A stretch of 64,000 nt of DNA. It comes from Nitrosomonadales bacterium. GTDB taxonomy: Bacteria; Pseudomonadota; Gammaproteobacteria; Burkholderiales; Gallionellaceae. The position numbers are program-made. Below, one piece after another: positions 29,801 to 35,429 of the stretch; the stretch's first letter is position 1; each line of letters opens with the position of its first letter. The DNA lies in assembly GCA_016721605.1 (NCBI GenBank), contig JADKHS010000005.1:49431-113430 (forward strand), given 5' to 3'.

Positions 29801-32800
29801 GCCATTTCGACCTGGCATACGGTAATCTGTGACGACTATGCCGACCTGCCTGTCTTTGTCCTGCAATATCCCAATCGCAGTATCCGCATCCGATTCCGTG
29901 AGTACTTCAAAGCCTGTACCGACAGAACGGACGAAGTACTTCCGCGCCATTTCCTCATCATCCACATACAGGATGTTAGAGACCCTATACTCAAGATTGT
30001 CCATTGCTACACTCATCACGTGGCTCTCGGCAGGTCAAAAATCATTTTCGTCCATTCGCCGACAACACTCTCGGCGACTAATGTGCCTCCATGTTGTTCG
30101 ATCACCCTATAACTGATGCTCAGCCCCAAACCGAGGCCCTGGCCGATCTCTCGTGTGGTAAAAAATGGCTCGAACACCCGCGCGATATTTTCAGGCGCGA
30201 TGCCCGGGCCGTTATCCTGCACCGTGACACGCAGCCGGTTGCTTTCCCACGCAGCGGATAGATGGATGGCAGGCTCACTACGGTTTGCCGCTCGCATCGC
30301 CAAAGCCGCGTTACCGAACAGATTGACCAACACGCCGATAATGGCCGCCTCGTCCCCCCGCACCAGTGTGTCAGCAGGCATATCACGTGTGATGGTGATG
30401 CCCTTGATTTCGTGCCCGACAAGGCGAATGGCGGAATCGACAACTTTCTCCAGAAGAAAAACGGTTCCGTCGGACGATGTTTCACTGCTTCGATAAGCGA
30501 AGGTTTTTAGATCCGAAACGATATGCTGAACTCGCTGCATCCCTTGCTTGGCATCTACCAGGCATTCGTTGAGTGCTGCACTAGACTTTGCAACAGGGTC
30601 TTCCAGCGCGATGTCCATCGCCATCAGGCAATAATTAACGGGATTATTGACTTCATGTAGCATCCCCGCCGCGAGTGTGCCGATTGCGGCCATTTTTTCT
30701 TGTTGCAGCATTTGGCCTTTGATATCGGCGAGGTTTTTGTTGGTTTCTTCCAGTTGCCGGTTTTTCTCGGCCACTTCTGTCTTGAGTCGAAATAATATGA
30801 AGCGAGCGCGTTCGTTGAAAAAGCAGCTTACTGCACTAATAACAATGACAAACAGTAGAATTAATGAGTTAACGACAAAGGCACCATGCAACATAAAGCT
30901 TTCAGGGTGAATGGAACATGCGGCAAGATAAAGTAAAAGGTGACAAAACCTAAAACAAGGTTAAACCGGAAGGTGGTCGGCAGTCCTAAGCTTGCCCCAA
31001 AAATAGCGAGGTAAAGTCCAATGCTGTACATGGATGTCGCTCCTTCCGTTGCGGCGATCATCCAGGTGATCATGATCTGGGGCAGAAGGAGCCAAACGAA
31101 TGCCAACATCTCAGCCCTGTCTTGCCCCCACTTCGTTCGCAAGATAATAATAATGCAGTAGATTAGCAGTGAAACAACTATCCGTGCAGCACCAAACAAA
31201 TACTGCAAATGCGGATAAAGCCCATAATCCAATCCCATTCCGAGCAGAATAAGCACAATAGCAGTATATGCAAAGGCTCGATTGAAGCTGAGACGATATT
31301 CACGAATCTCATCTTCATATCCTGAGTAGTGTTCTTTGCTCATGAATAATAGTTAATCGGTCAGGTAATAATCGCTTCTGCGAAAATATTCATTCCGGTC
31401 GCATCAACATAGATTTTCCGCGCAATCGATTGCGCAGGGAGTAGGGGATAAAAACTAGCTTCGTCTCGATAAATGAGATACCACTCCAGAAGATGCTCCA
31501 TAAAAAACTTCGTTGAGTTGTTCGAATGCACATTGGTGACCAGAATCTTGCCTCCGTGACAGGTACGCGCGGCAAAATGAGCCGTAAGTCTGGAACAAAC
31601 CTTATCGGACAGATAATCGAACAACCCGGCACAATACACGGCATCGAATTCTCGTGCGCTTTCCGAAGCAGGATCAATGCGGCGTTTGAGTAGTTTATGC
31701 ACAGAGTCATGCACGTAATTGATGACGACCGGCTTGCCGATCTGCGCGACGATAGACGAAAGTTTTCCACGCGTCCAGGCAAGAGTTTCCTCGCTGAAAT
31801 CGACGAGTTCGAAAGATAGAACCTCGGGGTGCGGATAACTTTGCAAAAAACGTTGTATCTCGATGGCGGGGCCGCATCCGACGTTCATGATACGGAATGT
31901 TTTTCCTGCAATTTGAGCCGCATCGGCCAAGTGTTTCAAAAAATCAACCAGTATATCTATACGGTTGCGGTGGGCAACTGCAAGGATATTTTGCAAACAA
32001 GCGGCATTCACCATCTGAAAATAGGTGCTTGGCCCCTGACGTGGATCATCCAGTATCTGGTTGACCATCTGATAATCGCCCGCATACCCCAAGGGTTTTG
32101 TATAGGTGCGGAACACAAAGGGTGCCCGGAGCAATAGGGGGTGCAGAGCAGTTTGCGCAAAGGAGCGGTGTGCGGACGCGAATTCATCATCGATCAGGTA
32201 TGCCTCGCTGTTCAGCGCGTCAAGATAAAATTCCATCTTCTGCATTAACGGCACAACAAGCTCATTAAAAACATCCGTTCGCAGCCGTCCATCCATTTTG
32301 GGAAGAGATTCGGAGAGATCCACTTGCTCAACCCAGCGCGAAACGTCGGACAGATAGGCGCGCATTTCATTCACTAAAATCTGGTAATCGCGCCGAATCT
32401 GAAAACGCTTAGTCCAGTCCTGAACGAATGCCAGCGCTTCCGCCCCGACCGCCCCCGGCACTACCACCACATCGTTCAATTCACGCCATTCGTCTATGAG
32501 TGTCACTGAAACGATGGCGGTGAGGCCGGTGTTGACTAGGCTGATGACAACTGCCTTGCCGAGGTAAGCAATCTTGGTGCTGAAACGCACCGTGAGTCCA
32601 CTGAGGACTTCGCTGACCTGCACGATGGAATACGGATTGTAAACCTCCATCACGAGGGATTTTCTCTGGAGGTTGATGATTGTCCCCCGAACCGCCTCAC
32701 CTTCCGCGTTGCGGAAGCTAACCAATGGGTCTATTTGTGATTTTGTGTGCAAGGTAGTGTTCAGGAAAGTCGGTACGGAGCATCTATTCCGTCCGATGAT

Positions 32801-35429
32801 TATTAGGCTCGTGCATTAAACAATCACAATACCAGAAAGATTGCAGAACGAAAACAAAGTGCATATCTTCTGACACTTCTGCCAATTGCGCAACAGAATG
32901 CGGAGAGCATCATTCTCTGTTAAATTATCGGTCATAATTACAAATGAGGTGGGTGTGCATTCGTTGCGCCTTCAATTGCAGCCAAATGGACAATCAATTA
33001 TCTGTTTATCAATACCCAACGTTGACCGTACTGATAGATGATAGCAAGAGCTTTCTGACCAGCCTTGCATTCCAACTGAACCCAAAATTGGCATGCAAGG
33101 CTTTTCACGATACTGATGCTGCCATTAATTGGCTACACCACACACATTGGCATTCCACTAAAAATGAGAATGAGCCGATCCGTGTCGGCTACGATAAATT
33201 GACAGATTCCTTTGAGCGGTGTTGTGCCTCTATTGATCTTGATCTAATTTACCGTATTGTGATGAATCGGCACCGTTTTGATATGCCGGCTGTGTTGGTG
33301 ATTGATTATGCTATGCCGCAGATGAATGGTGTGGAATTTTGTCAGGCTGTCCAGGGCTTGCCTTGCAAAAAAATCCTGTTAACCGGACAGGCCGATGAAA
33401 AAATCGCCATTGACGCATTTAACCGCAAATTGATTGATTGTTTCATTAAAAAAAATGACCCCGATGCACTTAATCAGCTAGAAGCCGAAATAGTCAAATT
33501 GCAAAAGGAGTTTTTTCATAGTCAGACAAGCACATTAAAAGATCTTTTGTCACGCCATTCTTACTCTTTCCTAACCGATCCCACCCTGGGAGCACTCGTT
33601 GGTCAACTCTGTAGCTTCTATAACTTTGAAGAATATTATTTATTCCCAAACCCGGCCGCCATTCTTTTCTTTGATATCCAGGGCAAAAGTACCCTGATGG
33701 TGATAGAAACTAAGGCCAGTTTAATTTCGCAGCTTGAGATTGCGCAGGATCAAGGTGCTCCGCCCGAATTTCTCACCGCCTTACGGGAATTCCGTGTAGT
33801 GCCTTTCTTTTGCGATACTGGTGGAGTGTACCGGGAGGAGGTTGGGCATAACTGGTTATCGTATTGTTTGCCGCCGCAGATTTGCCGGGGACGGAAGGAT
33901 TATTACTGGGCTCTGTTTGATTTGCCGTCCCATTATTTGCAAGGCCCCGTGTATTCTTATGCGGATTTTTTACGCGATCATGCAGCCGGTTTAACTGGGT
34001 ATCCCCCAGGTTATTAGGCGGGCTATCGGGCCATTCAAAGTTTTCGTACTATACTGGCTCGGTAATCTTAGAAAACTTGGTTTGCTGGACTAGCGGAAAG
34101 GGCGAGAATCGCCACCAACCAAACAACATCTTGTTTATCTTTCCGCTGAAAGAAATGGAAGTTCCAGTGGAAAGGTTCAGTTTCACTTAGCCTCAAACAG
34201 CTTTCTTCATCTTGTCAGAGCATGACGACGCTCACCCCGAATTACCTCGACGACCTGCTCAACTTCATAATCCAGTGTGGGCGATCTTGTTGCCGTAACC
34301 GTAAGAAATTTTATTGCGGAGAATGGCGCGTAATGAGTCTCCTGGAAATACCAGTTCTTGATTGTTCTGGAAACGGTTTCATAGCCTGAGATAACATTTA
34401 ACTTATTGTTTATATAATTAAAACTGTACAATTTGATAATGGTGATTTGTTATTTTTTAATGGGGGGAAGTCCGACAGGCTGCTAGCTTCCGCAAATGCG
34501 GTATCAGGTCAAATTGAGGCTGCTATAAACTAAATCTTCGCGCCGCAGCATAAATACAAATTCGTTACCTGTTGCCACTTCCAGCCAGATGAAAGGTAGA
34601 TTGGGATACGCGGTTTCAAGTGCGTGGCGATTATGGCCGATCTCGACCACCAGCAATCCATCGGGATTGAGGTGGTTGGCCGCGTGTTTCAGTATTTTGC
34701 GCGTGGCATCTAGTCCATCTGTGCCACTGCCCAATGCCAGTTGTGGTTCATGCTGATATTCTGGTGGTAGCGTGGCCATGGATGGCGCATCAACATAAGG
34801 GGGATTACTGATGATCACGTCATATTGCTTGCCCGTCAGATTGGCAAATATATCTGACTTTATAATGTTGATGCGGTCTTCCAAGCCATAGTCAGCAACA
34901 TTGCGTTGAGCAACTTCCAATGCGTCTGGAGAAATATCAACAGCATCCACTATGGCGTCAGGAAAGGCGTGGGCAGCCAAAATGGCGAGGCAGCCGCTAC
35001 CGGTACATAGATCCAACACGTCGGCCACAATCGTTGCATCGGCTATCCAGGGCGTAAATTGCTCCCGGATTAATTCAGAGATAAAAGAGCGGGGTACGAT
35101 GACGCGTTTGTCCACATAGAAGCGATACTCCCCTAACCAGGCTTCATGCGTCAGGTAGGCGACAGGAATTCGTTTGTCTACACGCTGTTTAAGCAATGTG
35201 ATCAATGCGTTTTTTTCGTCAGGTATGAGTCGTGCGTCAAGAAAAGGATCCAGTGTATCCAGTGGCAGATGCAGGGTGTGCAGAATAAGATAGGCTGCTT
35301 CATCGTATGCGTTGGCCGAGCCATGTCCGAAGCTGAGCTTTGCTTCGTTGAATGCACTTACCGTAAAGCGCAGCCAGTCACGTACGGTGTGAAGTTCGTT
35401 GGTGCAGTCAAAATGGTGCAGCACACTCA

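What the first reader, a model, noticed from the sequence alone, without database searches (positions are those of the whole stretch)
32753..34017. LqsR-like regulator divergent from phcB: a possible hybrid of two quorum-sensing systems
Seen: a REC protein with a long insertion before its phospho-Asp (VIDYAMP) and a non-HTH C-terminus shares a ~230-bp intergenic region with phcB. Known: these features match my recollection of Legionella LqsR, the output of alpha-hydroxyketone (LqsA/LqsS) signalling; no lqsA/cqsA is in the window. Inference: an LqsR-type output is wired to the PhcS/PhcR phosphorelay, a circuit I do not recognise as characterised.
Basis: partly seen in the sequence, partly recalled or inferred. 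Interest (0 to 1): 0.72.

Follow-up and report, generated by a model that had tools for sequence, protein, structure and literature searches.

The report
PhcX-like regulator beside phc operon
This gene in a nitrite-oxidising Nitrotoga bacterium encodes an LqsR/PhcX-type signalling protein next to a complete Phc quorum-sensing operon, a pairing already described in the plant pathogen Ralstonia, which here seems to have arisen separately and hints at which kinase feeds the regulator.

Summary
ORF 32986-34017 (+) encodes a 343-aa receiver protein with a ~40-residue insert before the phospho-Asp (D107, VIDYAMP) and a non-HTH tail. It matches Legionella LqsR (PDB 6SY9) over its full length by sequence (E 1.6e-40) and by fold (TM 0.77/0.86).

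It lies 233 bp from, and divergent to, phcB-phcS-phcR-phcQ. The genome has no LqsA/CqsA or LqsS.

The kind is already published. Ralstonia PhcX (Liu et al. 2023, mBio) is an LqsR orthologue next to phcBSRQ, and the window protein is 49% identical to it. This is therefore a new member of a known kind.

What this work adds:
- The divergent phcX<>phcBSRQ block is conserved in Nitrotoga, Methylotenera and another Burkholderiales genus.
- These copies form their own clade beside Oxalobacteraceae JqsR, apart from Ralstonia/Cupriavidus PhcX. An AU test rejects a single phc-linked clade (p 0.0014).
- These genomes lack PhcA.
- Some Gallionellaceae keep only a PhcR-like/PhcX-like gene pair.
- The PhcR kinase core groups with LqsS/CqsS-type kinases.

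Best model (inferred, not shown): PhcS signals to the PhcR receiver, and PhcR's LqsS-like transmitter then acts on PhcX.

Homopolymer frameshifts in phcS, phcR and dapE look like assembly errors.

The parts
32986..34017 (+). phcX-like gene: 343-aa LqsR/PhcX-family response regulator (a longer reading from 32944 is possible but not conserved)
   Evidence: ORF list. Start conserved in alignment A1. PDB 6SY9 LqsR at E 1.6e-40. 49% identity, E 2e-115, to Ralstonia solanacearum species complex PhcX, P0126. Foldseek top hit 6SY9, TM 0.77/0.86.
33013..33525 (+). Receiver (REC) domain, residues ~10-180. Acidic pocket D18/D19, phospho-acceptor D107 (codon 33304-33306), T133, K156. Includes a ~40-residue insert (residues ~60-98, about 33163-33279) between helix 2 and strand 3.
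   Evidence: Pfam PF00072 partial match. Invariant columns in A1. Residue positions. Secondary structure of the model, with low pLDDT at residues 70-78.
33553..33993 (+). C-terminal LqsR-type output domain (residues ~190-336): alpha/beta with five strands, no HTH, no Pfam family
   Evidence: Aligned to LqsR through residue 323. Model strands at 213-219, 224-229, 234-240, 297-300 and 304-311. Only 6SY9 matches this half in the PDB fold search; all other hits cover the receiver domain only.
32753..32985 (.). 233-bp divergent intergenic region between phcB and phcX. Holds the conserved motif ACAATACCAGAAAG at 32826-32839 and a second conserved block in roughly 32895-32935.
   Evidence: Sequence. 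Intergenic comparison. The motif lies 59-74 nt from the phcB start in Nitrotoga, L028 and the g47 genus, while its distance to phcX varies from 47 to 160 nt. The consensus promoter scan was not above chance.
31361..32752 (-). phcB: SAM-dependent methyltransferase, the autoinducer synthase of Phc quorum sensing
   Evidence: Weak Methyltransf_25/12 Pfam matches. 61% identical to the R. mannitolilytica gene in the same operon position. 65% identical to a Paraburkholderia graminis plasmid gene.
30016..31343 (-). phcS: membrane sensor histidine kinase. Split into two frames (30861-31343 and 30016-30894) by a 1-base homopolymer deletion at about 30935, relative to L001.
   Evidence: ORFs. HisKA and HATPase_c domains. 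A single 442-aa ORF in L001. Indel list.
28882..30019 (-). phcR: receiver domain plus histidine-kinase transmitter (H-box HELNTPL). The C-terminus is frameshifted by an extra C at about 29012.
   Evidence: Pfam REC + HisKA + HATPase_c. All relatives stop aligning at residue 336. Indel. The remainder of the gene lies at 28882-29022 in another frame. Kinase-core trees.
27872..28882 (-). phcQ: receiver domain plus an unknown C-terminal domain. That domain is not related to the PhcX output domain.
   Evidence: Pfam REC. 52% identical to the Ralstonia gene in the same position. BLASTP against PhcX finds only the receiver part, E 0.002.

Best explanation
The gene encodes a PhcX-type (LqsR-family) response regulator. 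It is the Nitrotoga counterpart of Ralstonia PhcX and is functionally tied to the adjacent Phc quorum-sensing relay.

Proposed mechanism:
1. PhcB makes a 3-hydroxy fatty-acid methyl ester signal.
2. The membrane kinase PhcS senses the signal and controls the receiver domain of the soluble protein PhcR.
3. PhcR's transmitter module, which belongs to the same kinase subfamily as LqsS/CqsS/JqsS (the known partners of LqsR-type regulators), phosphorylates or dephosphorylates PhcX at D107.
4. Phospho-PhcX then acts through its LqsR-type output domain. It probably dimerises and binds a partner or a nucleotide rather than DNA.

In Nitrotoga, which lacks PhcA and any alpha-hydroxyketone system, PhcX (together with PhcQ) would be an output of the Phc system.

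Shown here: family membership, fold, intact phospho-acceptor site, conserved linkage, absence of LqsA/LqsS/PhcA, and the kinship of the PhcR kinase core with LqsS-type kinases.

Inferred: every phosphotransfer step, the nature of the signal, and the output activity.

My separate odds: family identity 0.95; functional coupling to the Phc relay 0.6; PhcR as the direct partner 0.4.
For: Identity:
- phmmer against 6SY9 LqsR gives E 1.6e-40 over residues 22-323.
- The AlphaFold model (pLDDT 87.5) has 6SY9 as its only full-length PDB match, TM 0.77/0.86.
- D18/D19/D107/T133/K156 are invariant in 34 homologues.

Linkage:
- The divergent phcX<>phcBSRQ block is found in three Nitrotoga genomes, L028/G300, the genus g47 (L005, L020, L085) and Methylotenera (L025, L026).
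- Among 401 Burkholderiales genomes, 11 carry PhcB. Ten of those 11 have a full-length LqsR-family gene, against 17 of the other 390 (Fisher p 3e-12; by genus 7/8 against 10/159, p 2e-7).
- Of the 11, 5 have the two genes adjacent and divergent, 1 adjacent and co-directional (Ralstonia), and 1 12.5 kb apart (Cupriavidus).

No alternative partner:
- No LqsA hit passes the NF005526 cut-off (best 175-190 bits against a cut-off of 428), and there is no LqsS/JqsS orthologue in G000 or its relatives, including a 99%-complete congener.

No PhcA:
- The Ralstonia PhcA candidate has a 77%-identical orthologue only in Cupriavidus. Nitrotoga, g47 and Methylotenera have nothing better than a single 23% LysR match in one Nitrotoga genome, G401.

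PhcR as partner:
- Gallionellaceae MAGs L006 and L007 keep only a PhcR-like gene divergent from a PhcX-like gene, with no PhcB or PhcS anywhere in the genome. L004 keeps phcS-phcR-phcX without phcB.
- The L006 genome also has a separate canonical lqsS-lqsR-cqsA cluster, so the PhcR-linked copy is a distinct paralogue.
- The PhcR H-box, HELNTPLxxIxNFARG, resembles JqsS/LqsS/CqsS (HELRTPLxxIxxxA[RS]G), whereas PhcS has HEVNNPVNY.
- The best Collimonas hit of the PhcR kinase core is JqsS, and vice versa in Nitrotoga.
- LuxN_Vibrio is the top NCBIfam model for JqsS and LqsS, and is among the three best for the PhcR core.
- In kinase-core trees, PhcR and LqsS-type kinases form one clade (96/89, then 98/93 with more kinases added) that excludes PhcS and 17 other kinases.

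Independent recruitment:
- The phc-divergent clade (98/94) sits with Oxalobacteraceae JqsR inside a 99/98 clade that excludes Ralstonia/Cupriavidus PhcX. An AU test rejects one phc-linked clade, p 0.0014.
Against:
- In Ralstonia, phcX is transcribed independently of the phc operon. Its deletion does not change phc gene expression, and its regulon runs mostly opposite to PhcA's (PMC10653808). That is compatible with a separate input.
- Deleting phcR in Ralstonia has only mild effects (PMC8578825).
- Close metagenomic relatives of the window protein occur without any phc gene nearby: P0035 is an orphan and P0024 sits next to a PAS kinase. The linkage is frequent but not obligatory.
- In four PhcB-bearing genomes the LqsR homologue stays with jqsS/cqsA.
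- PhcR is only 24-30% identical to LqsS-type cores, and the DHp positions after the His (+7, +11, +12) differ from JqsS.
- The kinase trees sample few outgroups.
- The AU-test group was defined after the tree had been seen.
- In the window itself phcS and phcR carry frameshifts. If these are real, the relay would be broken in this strain.
Confidence: 0.6

Rival explanations
1. PhcX is a parallel direct substrate of the membrane kinase PhcS, alongside PhcR and PhcQ. The PhcR transmitter serves another purpose, for example as a phosphatase or sink.
For: phcS lies in the same block in most loci. Published Ralstonia models have PhcS phosphorylating the soluble receivers (PMC8578825). L004 keeps phcS together with phcR and phcX.
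Against: The L006 and L007 genomes have the PhcR-like/PhcX-like pair but no PhcS orthologue; the best match is 35% and covers only the ATPase part. The PhcS DHp (HEVNNPVNY) is unlike LqsS-type kinases, and PhcS falls outside the PhcR+LqsS clade.
Confidence: 0.2
2. PhcX works independently of Phc signalling. It would be fed by an unlinked orphan kinase or by acetyl-phosphate, and the adjacency would reflect co-transfer or shared transcriptional control only.
For: Independent transcription and a largely PhcA-opposed regulon in Ralstonia (PMC10653808). Orphan or differently linked close relatives in metagenomes. Nitrotoga has about ten other histidine kinases.
Against: The association recurs, apparently independently, in two orientations. 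LqsR-family genes are strongly enriched in PhcB-bearing genomes. Minimal PhcR/PhcX pairs persist.
Confidence: 0.15
3. The gene is the remnant of a canonical Lqs/Jqs cluster, and its lqsA/lqsS partners lie in the unassembled ~10% of the genome.
For: G000 is only 90% complete and has indel errors.
Against: A 99%-complete congener (G300), two other Nitrotoga genomes, three g47 genomes and two Methylotenera genomes all lack a CqsA-type synthase; for six of these genomes, including G000, no hit passes the NF005526 cut-off. The gene's flanks are phcB and prmB, with no relic of lqsS.
Confidence: 0.03

Closest known systems
PhcX (RSc2734) of Ralstonia solanacearum (Liu et al. 2023, mBio, PMC10653808)
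   Same: LqsR-family regulator of the same length and architecture, 49% identical over the full length. Immediately next to phcBSRQ, in a genome without lqsA/lqsS.
   Different: - Here the gene is divergent from phcB with a 233-bp spacer. In Ralstonia it is upstream and co-directional, with a ~600-bp spacer (the paper gives 596 bp).
- The Nitrotoga-type copies are not sister to Ralstonia PhcX. They group with Oxalobacteraceae JqsR.
- The host has no PhcA and is a chemolithoautotrophic nitrite oxidiser, not a plant pathogen.
- The paper lists only Hydrogenophaga, Cupriavidus and Ralstonia as having phc-adjacent copies.
LqsR of Legionella pneumophila (PDB 6SY9; Lqs alpha-hydroxyketone quorum sensing)
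   Same: Same two-domain fold, including the receiver insert and the non-DNA-binding output domain. The phospho-acceptor Asp lies in the same VVDYAMP motif.
   Different: About 30-35% identity. LqsR is encoded with lqsA and lqsS and is phosphorylated by LqsS/LqsT (my own knowledge of the Legionella literature). Here neither the synthase nor the membrane sensor exists.
JqsR-type regulators of Oxalobacteraceae (Janthinobacterium, Collimonas, Duganella; jqsA<>jqsS-jqsR clusters; PMC3566124)
   Same: These are the closest named relatives, 53-67% identical, and form the sister groups in the tree. Receiver helix 1 is nearly identical.
   Different: They sit directly downstream of a JqsS sensor kinase and beside a CqsA-type synthase (NF005526, 566 bits). 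Where these genomes also carry phcBSRQ, the regulator stays with jqs.
PhcR and PhcQ, the receiver proteins encoded inside the phc operon
   Same: Both are soluble receiver-domain proteins without a DNA-binding domain, encoded in the same locus.
   Different: Only the receiver domains are related (E 0.002). PhcR carries a kinase transmitter. PhcQ carries an unrelated tail and, in Ralstonia, binds PhcA (PMC13320629, abstract).

Membership tests
LqsR/PhcX family of response regulators | Full-length sequence similarity to LqsR, covering receiver and output domains | tested here: met
   phmmer against 6SY9: E 1.6e-40, query residues 22-323 against chain residues 29-328. 49% identity to Ralstonia PhcX.
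LqsR/PhcX family of response regulators | Phosphorylatable receiver: acidic pocket, acceptor Asp in the (V/I)DYAMP motif, conserved Thr and Lys | tested here: met
   D18, D19, D107, T133 and K156 are present and invariant in 34 homologues.
LqsR/PhcX family of response regulators | Insert of about 40 residues in the receiver domain before the acceptor Asp | tested here: met
   Model residues ~60-98 lie between helix 2 and strand 3. This stretch aligns with the same region of 6SY9.
LqsR/PhcX family of response regulators | LqsR-type alpha/beta output domain with a five-stranded sheet and no HTH | tested here: met
   Foldseek: 6SY9 is the only full-length match (TM 0.77/0.86, E 9.7e-29). Every other hit covers the receiver only.
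LqsR/PhcX family of response regulators | Phosphorylation-dependent dimerisation or other output activity | not testable with these tools
   Needs biochemistry. The output function is unknown even for LqsR (discussion in PMC10653808).
Lqs/Cqs/Jqs alpha-hydroxyketone quorum-sensing system | A CqsA/LqsA-type autoinducer synthase in the genome | tested here: not met
   NF005526: best 174.6 bits in G000 against a cut-off of 428. The same holds for five related genomes. tblastn finds only 24-30% BioF-like hits.
Lqs/Cqs/Jqs alpha-hydroxyketone quorum-sensing system | A six-TM LqsS/CqsS-type sensor kinase encoded beside the regulator | tested here: not met
   The neighbours are phcB and prmB. The best genomic hits of JqsS/LqsS/CqsS are the kinase cores of PhcR and PhcS, with no membrane-domain match.
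Phc quorum-sensing system (phcBSRQ plus phcA) | phcB-phcS-phcR-phcQ operon with orthologous genes in that order | tested here: met
   61/64/49/52% identity to the R. mannitolilytica genes, in the same order. In this assembly phcS and phcR carry single-base homopolymer frameshifts.
Phc quorum-sensing system (phcBSRQ plus phcA) | The LysR-type master regulator PhcA | tested here: not met
   The Ralstonia candidate is a 347-349-aa LysR protein that JGI names 'regulator of virulence genes'. It has a 77% orthologue in Cupriavidus only. Nitrotoga, g47 and Methylotenera give no match at E <= 1e-8, apart from one 23% LysR hit in G401.
Phc quorum-sensing system (phcBSRQ plus phcA) | Production and sensing of methyl 3-hydroxymyristate or methyl 3-hydroxypalmitate | not testable with these tools
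   Needs chemistry on cultures or heterologous expression of PhcB.
Ralstonia-type PhcX (strict orthologue) | Forms one clade with Ralstonia/Cupriavidus PhcX, to the exclusion of jqs/lqs-linked regulators | tested here: not met
   The phc-divergent clade (98/94) lies inside a 99/98 clade with Oxalobacteraceae JqsR that excludes Ralstonia/Cupriavidus. AU test p 0.0014 against a single phc-linked clade (the group was named after the tree was seen).
Ralstonia-type PhcX (strict orthologue) | Located upstream of phcB and co-directional with it | tested here: not met
   Divergent here and in all Nitrotoga-type loci; co-directional in L087, Ralstonia.

The most novel reading that the evidence does not exclude
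PhcR and PhcX are a cognate kinase-regulator pair of the Lqs type. PhcR would be an LqsS/CqsS-family transmitter whose membrane sensor has been replaced by a receiver domain that listens to PhcS. LqsR-family regulators would have been recruited to phc clusters at least twice (Ralstonia/Cupriavidus, and the Nitrotoga/Methylotenera/g47 lineage) because they fit this transmitter. PhcX would then be the long-missing substrate of the PhcR kinase domain. In bacteria without PhcA, it would be the main output of 3-hydroxy fatty-acid methyl ester quorum sensing, including in environmentally important nitrite oxidisers.
Probability: 0.35. Interest if true: 0.6.

Novelty: new member of a known kind. Interest (0 to 1): 0.35.

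Why it matters
Since 1997 the Phc system has carried an unexplained component: the histidine-kinase half of PhcR has no known substrate. The published Ralstonia models still invoke 'an unknown regulator' (PMC8578825). PhcX was added in 2023 with no input kinase assigned.

The comparative data here give one directly testable answer, PhcR to PhcX. They rest on minimal PhcR/PhcX pairs, the LqsS-like PhcR transmitter, and recurrent linkage of the two genes.

The data also show that Phc-type signalling together with a PhcX-type regulator exists outside plant-associated Burkholderiaceae, in Nitrotoga and Methylotenera. There PhcA is absent, and the one Nitrotoga genome paper checked reports only LuxI/LuxR quorum sensing (bioRxiv 10.1101/317552).

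For the scan itself, the main message is sobering: the 'hybrid of two quorum-sensing systems' is a published concept, not a discovery.

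Tried and rejected
- A shared output domain in PhcQ and PhcX: rejected. Only the receiver domains align.
- A known RNA element in or around the intergenic region: none found in Rfam at E <= 0.1.
- Consensus sigma-70 promoters and terminators: not above the shuffled expectation.
- An LqsA hidden as the class I/II aminotransferase-like hit on contig C38: rejected. It scores 175 bits against a cut-off of 428 and is BioF-like.
- The plasmid collection as a source of Ralstonia context: it gave only a Massilia plasmid LqsR homologue, Legionella plasmid copies and a Paraburkholderia plasmid PhcB. 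Ralstonia and Cupriavidus were instead identified by exact cluster look-up.
- NCBIfam has no PhcA-specific model, so PhcA was identified by genomic position, source name and the Cupriavidus orthologue.
- Comparison of DHp specificity positions between PhcR and JqsS: inconclusive. Positions +7, +11 and +12 differ.
- A universal phc link within the clade: rejected. Two metagenomic relatives have other neighbours.

Full report
**1. What is at the coordinates**

The window is contig C5:49431-113430 of a 2.75-Mb, 38-contig, ~90%-complete genome. Its closest public relatives are Candidatus Nitrotoga genomes of the family Gallionellaceae; L001, Nitrotoga sp. CP45, is 98% identical.

A + strand ORF ends at 34017. 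Its conserved start is the ATG at 32986 (MDNQLSVYQYPTLTVLIDDS...), giving 343 aa. The finding's start, 32753, is simply the first base after the divergent phcB start at 32752, so the intergenic region is 233 bp.

On the minus strand lie four genes:
- phcB (31361-32752);
- phcS (30016-31343, in two frames);
- phcR (28882-30019);
- phcQ (27872-28882).

**2. Identity of the protein**

Pfam sees only the second half of a receiver domain. The whole protein, however, matches the crystal-structure sequence of Legionella pneumophila LqsR (6SY9) at E 1.6e-40 over residues 22-323. The next PDB hits, at E 2e-5 and weaker, cover the receiver only.

An AlphaFold2 model built on 34 homologues has mean pLDDT 87.5 and pTM 0.85. 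Its only full-length structural match is 6SY9 (Foldseek E 9.7e-29, TM 0.77/0.86). Every other hit is a receiver domain.

The model shows three features:
- a receiver domain with D18/D19, D107 (VLVIDYAMPQ), T133 and K156, all invariant in the family alignment;
- a ~40-residue insert between helix 2 and strand 3, partly low-confidence;
- a C-terminal alpha/beta domain with five strands and no helix-turn-helix.

**3. This kind of gene is already known**

A full-text search found Liu et al. 2023 (mBio; PMC10653808). According to that paper:
- PhcX (RSc2734) of Ralstonia solanacearum is an LqsR orthologue lying immediately upstream of phcBSRQ, with a 596-bp spacer, and is transcribed independently.
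- Its deletion changes about 16% of genes, mostly in the direction opposite to PhcA.
- The authors already propose that phcX was decoupled from the Lqs system and linked to phc.
- They list Hydrogenophaga, Cupriavidus and Ralstonia as the genera with phc-adjacent copies.

I identified locus L087 as Ralstonia mannitolilytica, and its cluster as containing R. solanacearum PhcX, by exact-sequence look-up. The window protein is 49% identical to PhcX of the R. solanacearum species complex over the full length, E 2e-115. The concept of an 'LqsR-type regulator next to phc' is not new.

**4. Conservation of the linkage**

The same divergent block, phcX<>phcB-S-R-Q, occurs in:
- three other Nitrotoga genomes (L001-L003);
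- a more distant genome that the genome search places in the same genus (L028 = G300);
- three genomes of another Burkholderiales genus, g47 (L005, L020, L085);
- two Methylotenera MAGs (L025, L026).

In Ralstonia (L087) the gene is co-directional with phcB. In Cupriavidus (G266) it lies 12.5 kb from phcB, with phcA another 11 kb further on.

In an even sample of 401 Burkholderiales genomes:
- PhcB occurs in 11 and a PhcR orthologue in 12.
- Ten of the 11 PhcB genomes carry a full-length LqsR-family gene, against 17 of the remaining 390 (Fisher p 3e-12). By genus the figures are 7/8 against 10/159 (p 2e-7). Neither test is corrected for phylogeny.
- In four PhcB genomes the regulator stays in a jqsS/cqsA cluster.

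Two long metagenomic contigs carrying close relatives show other neighbours, so the link is frequent but not obligatory.

**5. No alternative cognate system, and no PhcA**

Collimonas JqsA passes the NCBIfam model for alpha-hydroxyketone autoinducer synthases (566 bits against a cut-off of 428). That model scores at most 175-190 bits in G000 and in five related genomes, including the 99%-complete G300. tblastn finds only 24-30% BioF-like hits. JqsS/LqsS/CqsS queries hit only the kinase cores of PhcR and PhcS.

The Ralstonia PhcA candidate is a 347-349-aa LysR protein about 11 kb beyond phcQ, named by JGI 'LysR family transcriptional regulator of virulence genes'. It has a 77% orthologue in Cupriavidus. 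It has none in Nitrotoga, g47 or Methylotenera, nor in the four PhcB-bearing genomes whose regulator stays in a jqs/cqs cluster.

In the Nitrotoga-type systems, then, the classical Phc output is absent. PhcX and PhcQ are the only conserved candidates for an output.

**6. Evolution**

A maximum-likelihood tree of 62 LqsR-family proteins, labelled by gene context, shows the following:
- There is a well-supported PhcX/JqsR clade (100/99).
- Inside it, Ralstonia and Cupriavidus PhcX form one group (100/99).
- A second clade (99/98) holds the Oxalobacteraceae jqsA<>jqsS-jqsR regulators together with a 13-member clade (98/94) in which every copy is divergent from phc genes. The window protein belongs to this 13-member clade.

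Forcing all phc-linked copies into one clade costs 32 log-likelihood units (AU p 0.0014). The caveat is that I named this group after seeing the tree.

With the opposite gene orientation, this points to at least two separate recruitments of a JqsR-like regulator to phc clusters. The alternative is one recruitment followed by a return to jqs in Oxalobacteraceae. This differs from the published picture of a gradual association within the Ralstonia lineage.

**7. Which kinase?**

Three observations point to PhcR.

(a) Minimal pairs.
- Gallionellaceae MAGs L006 and L007 have only a PhcR-like gene (receiver + HisKA + HATPase, 52-56% identical to PhcR) divergent from the PhcX-like gene. Their genomes have no PhcB or PhcS.
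- L004 has phcS-phcR<>phcX without phcB or phcQ.
- The L006 genome also carries a complete canonical lqsS-lqsR-cqsA cluster elsewhere (L091), and the regulator there falls in a different clade. The PhcR-linked copy is therefore a distinct paralogue, not a stray LqsR.

(b) The H-box.
- The PhcR phospho-acceptor helix reads HELNTPLxxIxNFARG.
- JqsS, LqsS and CqsS read HELRTPLxxIxxxA(R/S)G.
- PhcS reads HEVNNPVNY.

(c) Kinship of the kinase core.
- The best match of the PhcR kinase core in Collimonas, which has no phc genes, is JqsS. The best match of Collimonas JqsS in Nitrotoga is PhcR.
- LuxN_Vibrio is the top NCBIfam model for JqsS and LqsS, and is among the three best for the PhcR core.
- In kinase-core trees, PhcR and LqsS-type kinases form one clade. 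Support is 96/89 with ten other Nitrotoga kinases. It is 98/93 after adding the 14 best-scoring competitor kinases from Collimonas, Cupriavidus and other genomes. Six of those competitors turned out to be LqsS/LqsT-like paralogues themselves.
- PhcS groups elsewhere.

I found no paper that links PhcR to LqsS/CqsS-type kinases. The Ralstonia literature still treats the PhcR kinase domain as lacking a known substrate.

The weaknesses are these:
- identity between PhcR and LqsS-type cores is only 24-30%;
- the outgroup sample is small;
- the putative specificity positions differ from JqsS;
- no experiment exists.

**8. Model and odds**

PhcB makes the signal. PhcS senses it and controls the PhcR receiver. 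The LqsS-like transmitter of PhcR sets the phosphorylation state of PhcX D107, and PhcX acts through its LqsR-type output domain.

My odds:
- family identity about 0.95;
- functional coupling to the Phc relay about 0.6;
- PhcR as the direct partner about 0.4.

The rivals are direct PhcS-to-PhcX transfer (0.2), an input independent of Phc (0.15), and a hidden Lqs system (0.03).

**9. Quality caveat**

Relative to the 98%-identical L001, the window has single-base homopolymer indels inside coding regions:
- 27886 (phcQ tail);
- 29012 (phcR);
- 30935 (phcS);
- 35634 and 35649 (dapE).

A giant repeat-protein gene is also split into two frames. Because an essential gene is affected in the same way, these are most likely assembly errors rather than pseudogenes.

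**10. Verdict**

- The claim of novelty fails, because PhcX is published.
- What remains of interest is the new lineage and orientation, the apparent independent recruitment, the absence of PhcA, and the testable PhcR-PhcX pairing.

Noticed in passing
window 27886, 29012, 30935, 35634, 35649: Single-base homopolymer indels relative to the 98%-identical Nitrotoga sp. CP45 locus (L001). They frameshift phcQ (last residues), phcR (after residue 336), phcS (split into 160-aa and 292-aa ORFs) and dapE (C-terminus). The pattern suggests indel-prone sequencing or assembly rather than gene decay.
   Followed up: partly
window 17160-23593 (-): The 61% G+C stretch encodes a giant surface-type repeat protein: at least 16 DUF7933 repeats, DUF11 domains and an IPTL-CTERM sorting signal. 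It reads as two overlapping ORFs (17160-19250 and 18479-23593) in different frames, probably another frameshift.
   Followed up: no
window 32826-32839: The motif ACAATACCAGAAAG is conserved in Nitrotoga, L028 and the g47 genus. It lies at a nearly fixed distance (59-74 nt) from the phcB start but a variable distance (47-160 nt) from phcX. Read on the phcB strand it gives TGGTATTGT, which resembles an extended -10 element, so it is probably part of the phcB promoter.
   Followed up: partly
window ~32895-32935: A second conserved block upstream of phcX: AGAATGCGGAGAGCATCATTCTCTGTTAAATTATCGG, containing an AGAATG/CATTCT inverted repeat followed by TGTTAAATT. It is shared with L028 and with the PhcR-only loci L006 and L007, and may be the phcX promoter or operator.
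   Followed up: no
L091 (G406:C91) 2882-6566 and L006 5439-7837: One Gallionellaceae MAG carries two LqsR-family paralogues. One is in a canonical lqsS-lqsR-cqsA cluster. The other is paired divergently with a PhcR-like receiver-kinase, in a genome with no PhcB or PhcS.
   Followed up: partly
window 3336-9406: A low-G+C stretch (42-44%) holds genes for a PEP-CTERM protein (3336-4133), an aminotransferase (5021-6256), an AI-2E family transporter (7322-8419) and an Asp/Asn beta-hydroxylase-like protein (8507-9406). It may be an acquired segment.
   Followed up: no
H1, NZ_CP024609.1 70381-71358: An 87-kb Massilia violaceinigra plasmid encodes an LqsR-family regulator 46% identical to the window protein. 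Legionella conjugative plasmids carry more distant copies (24-27%).
   Followed up: no
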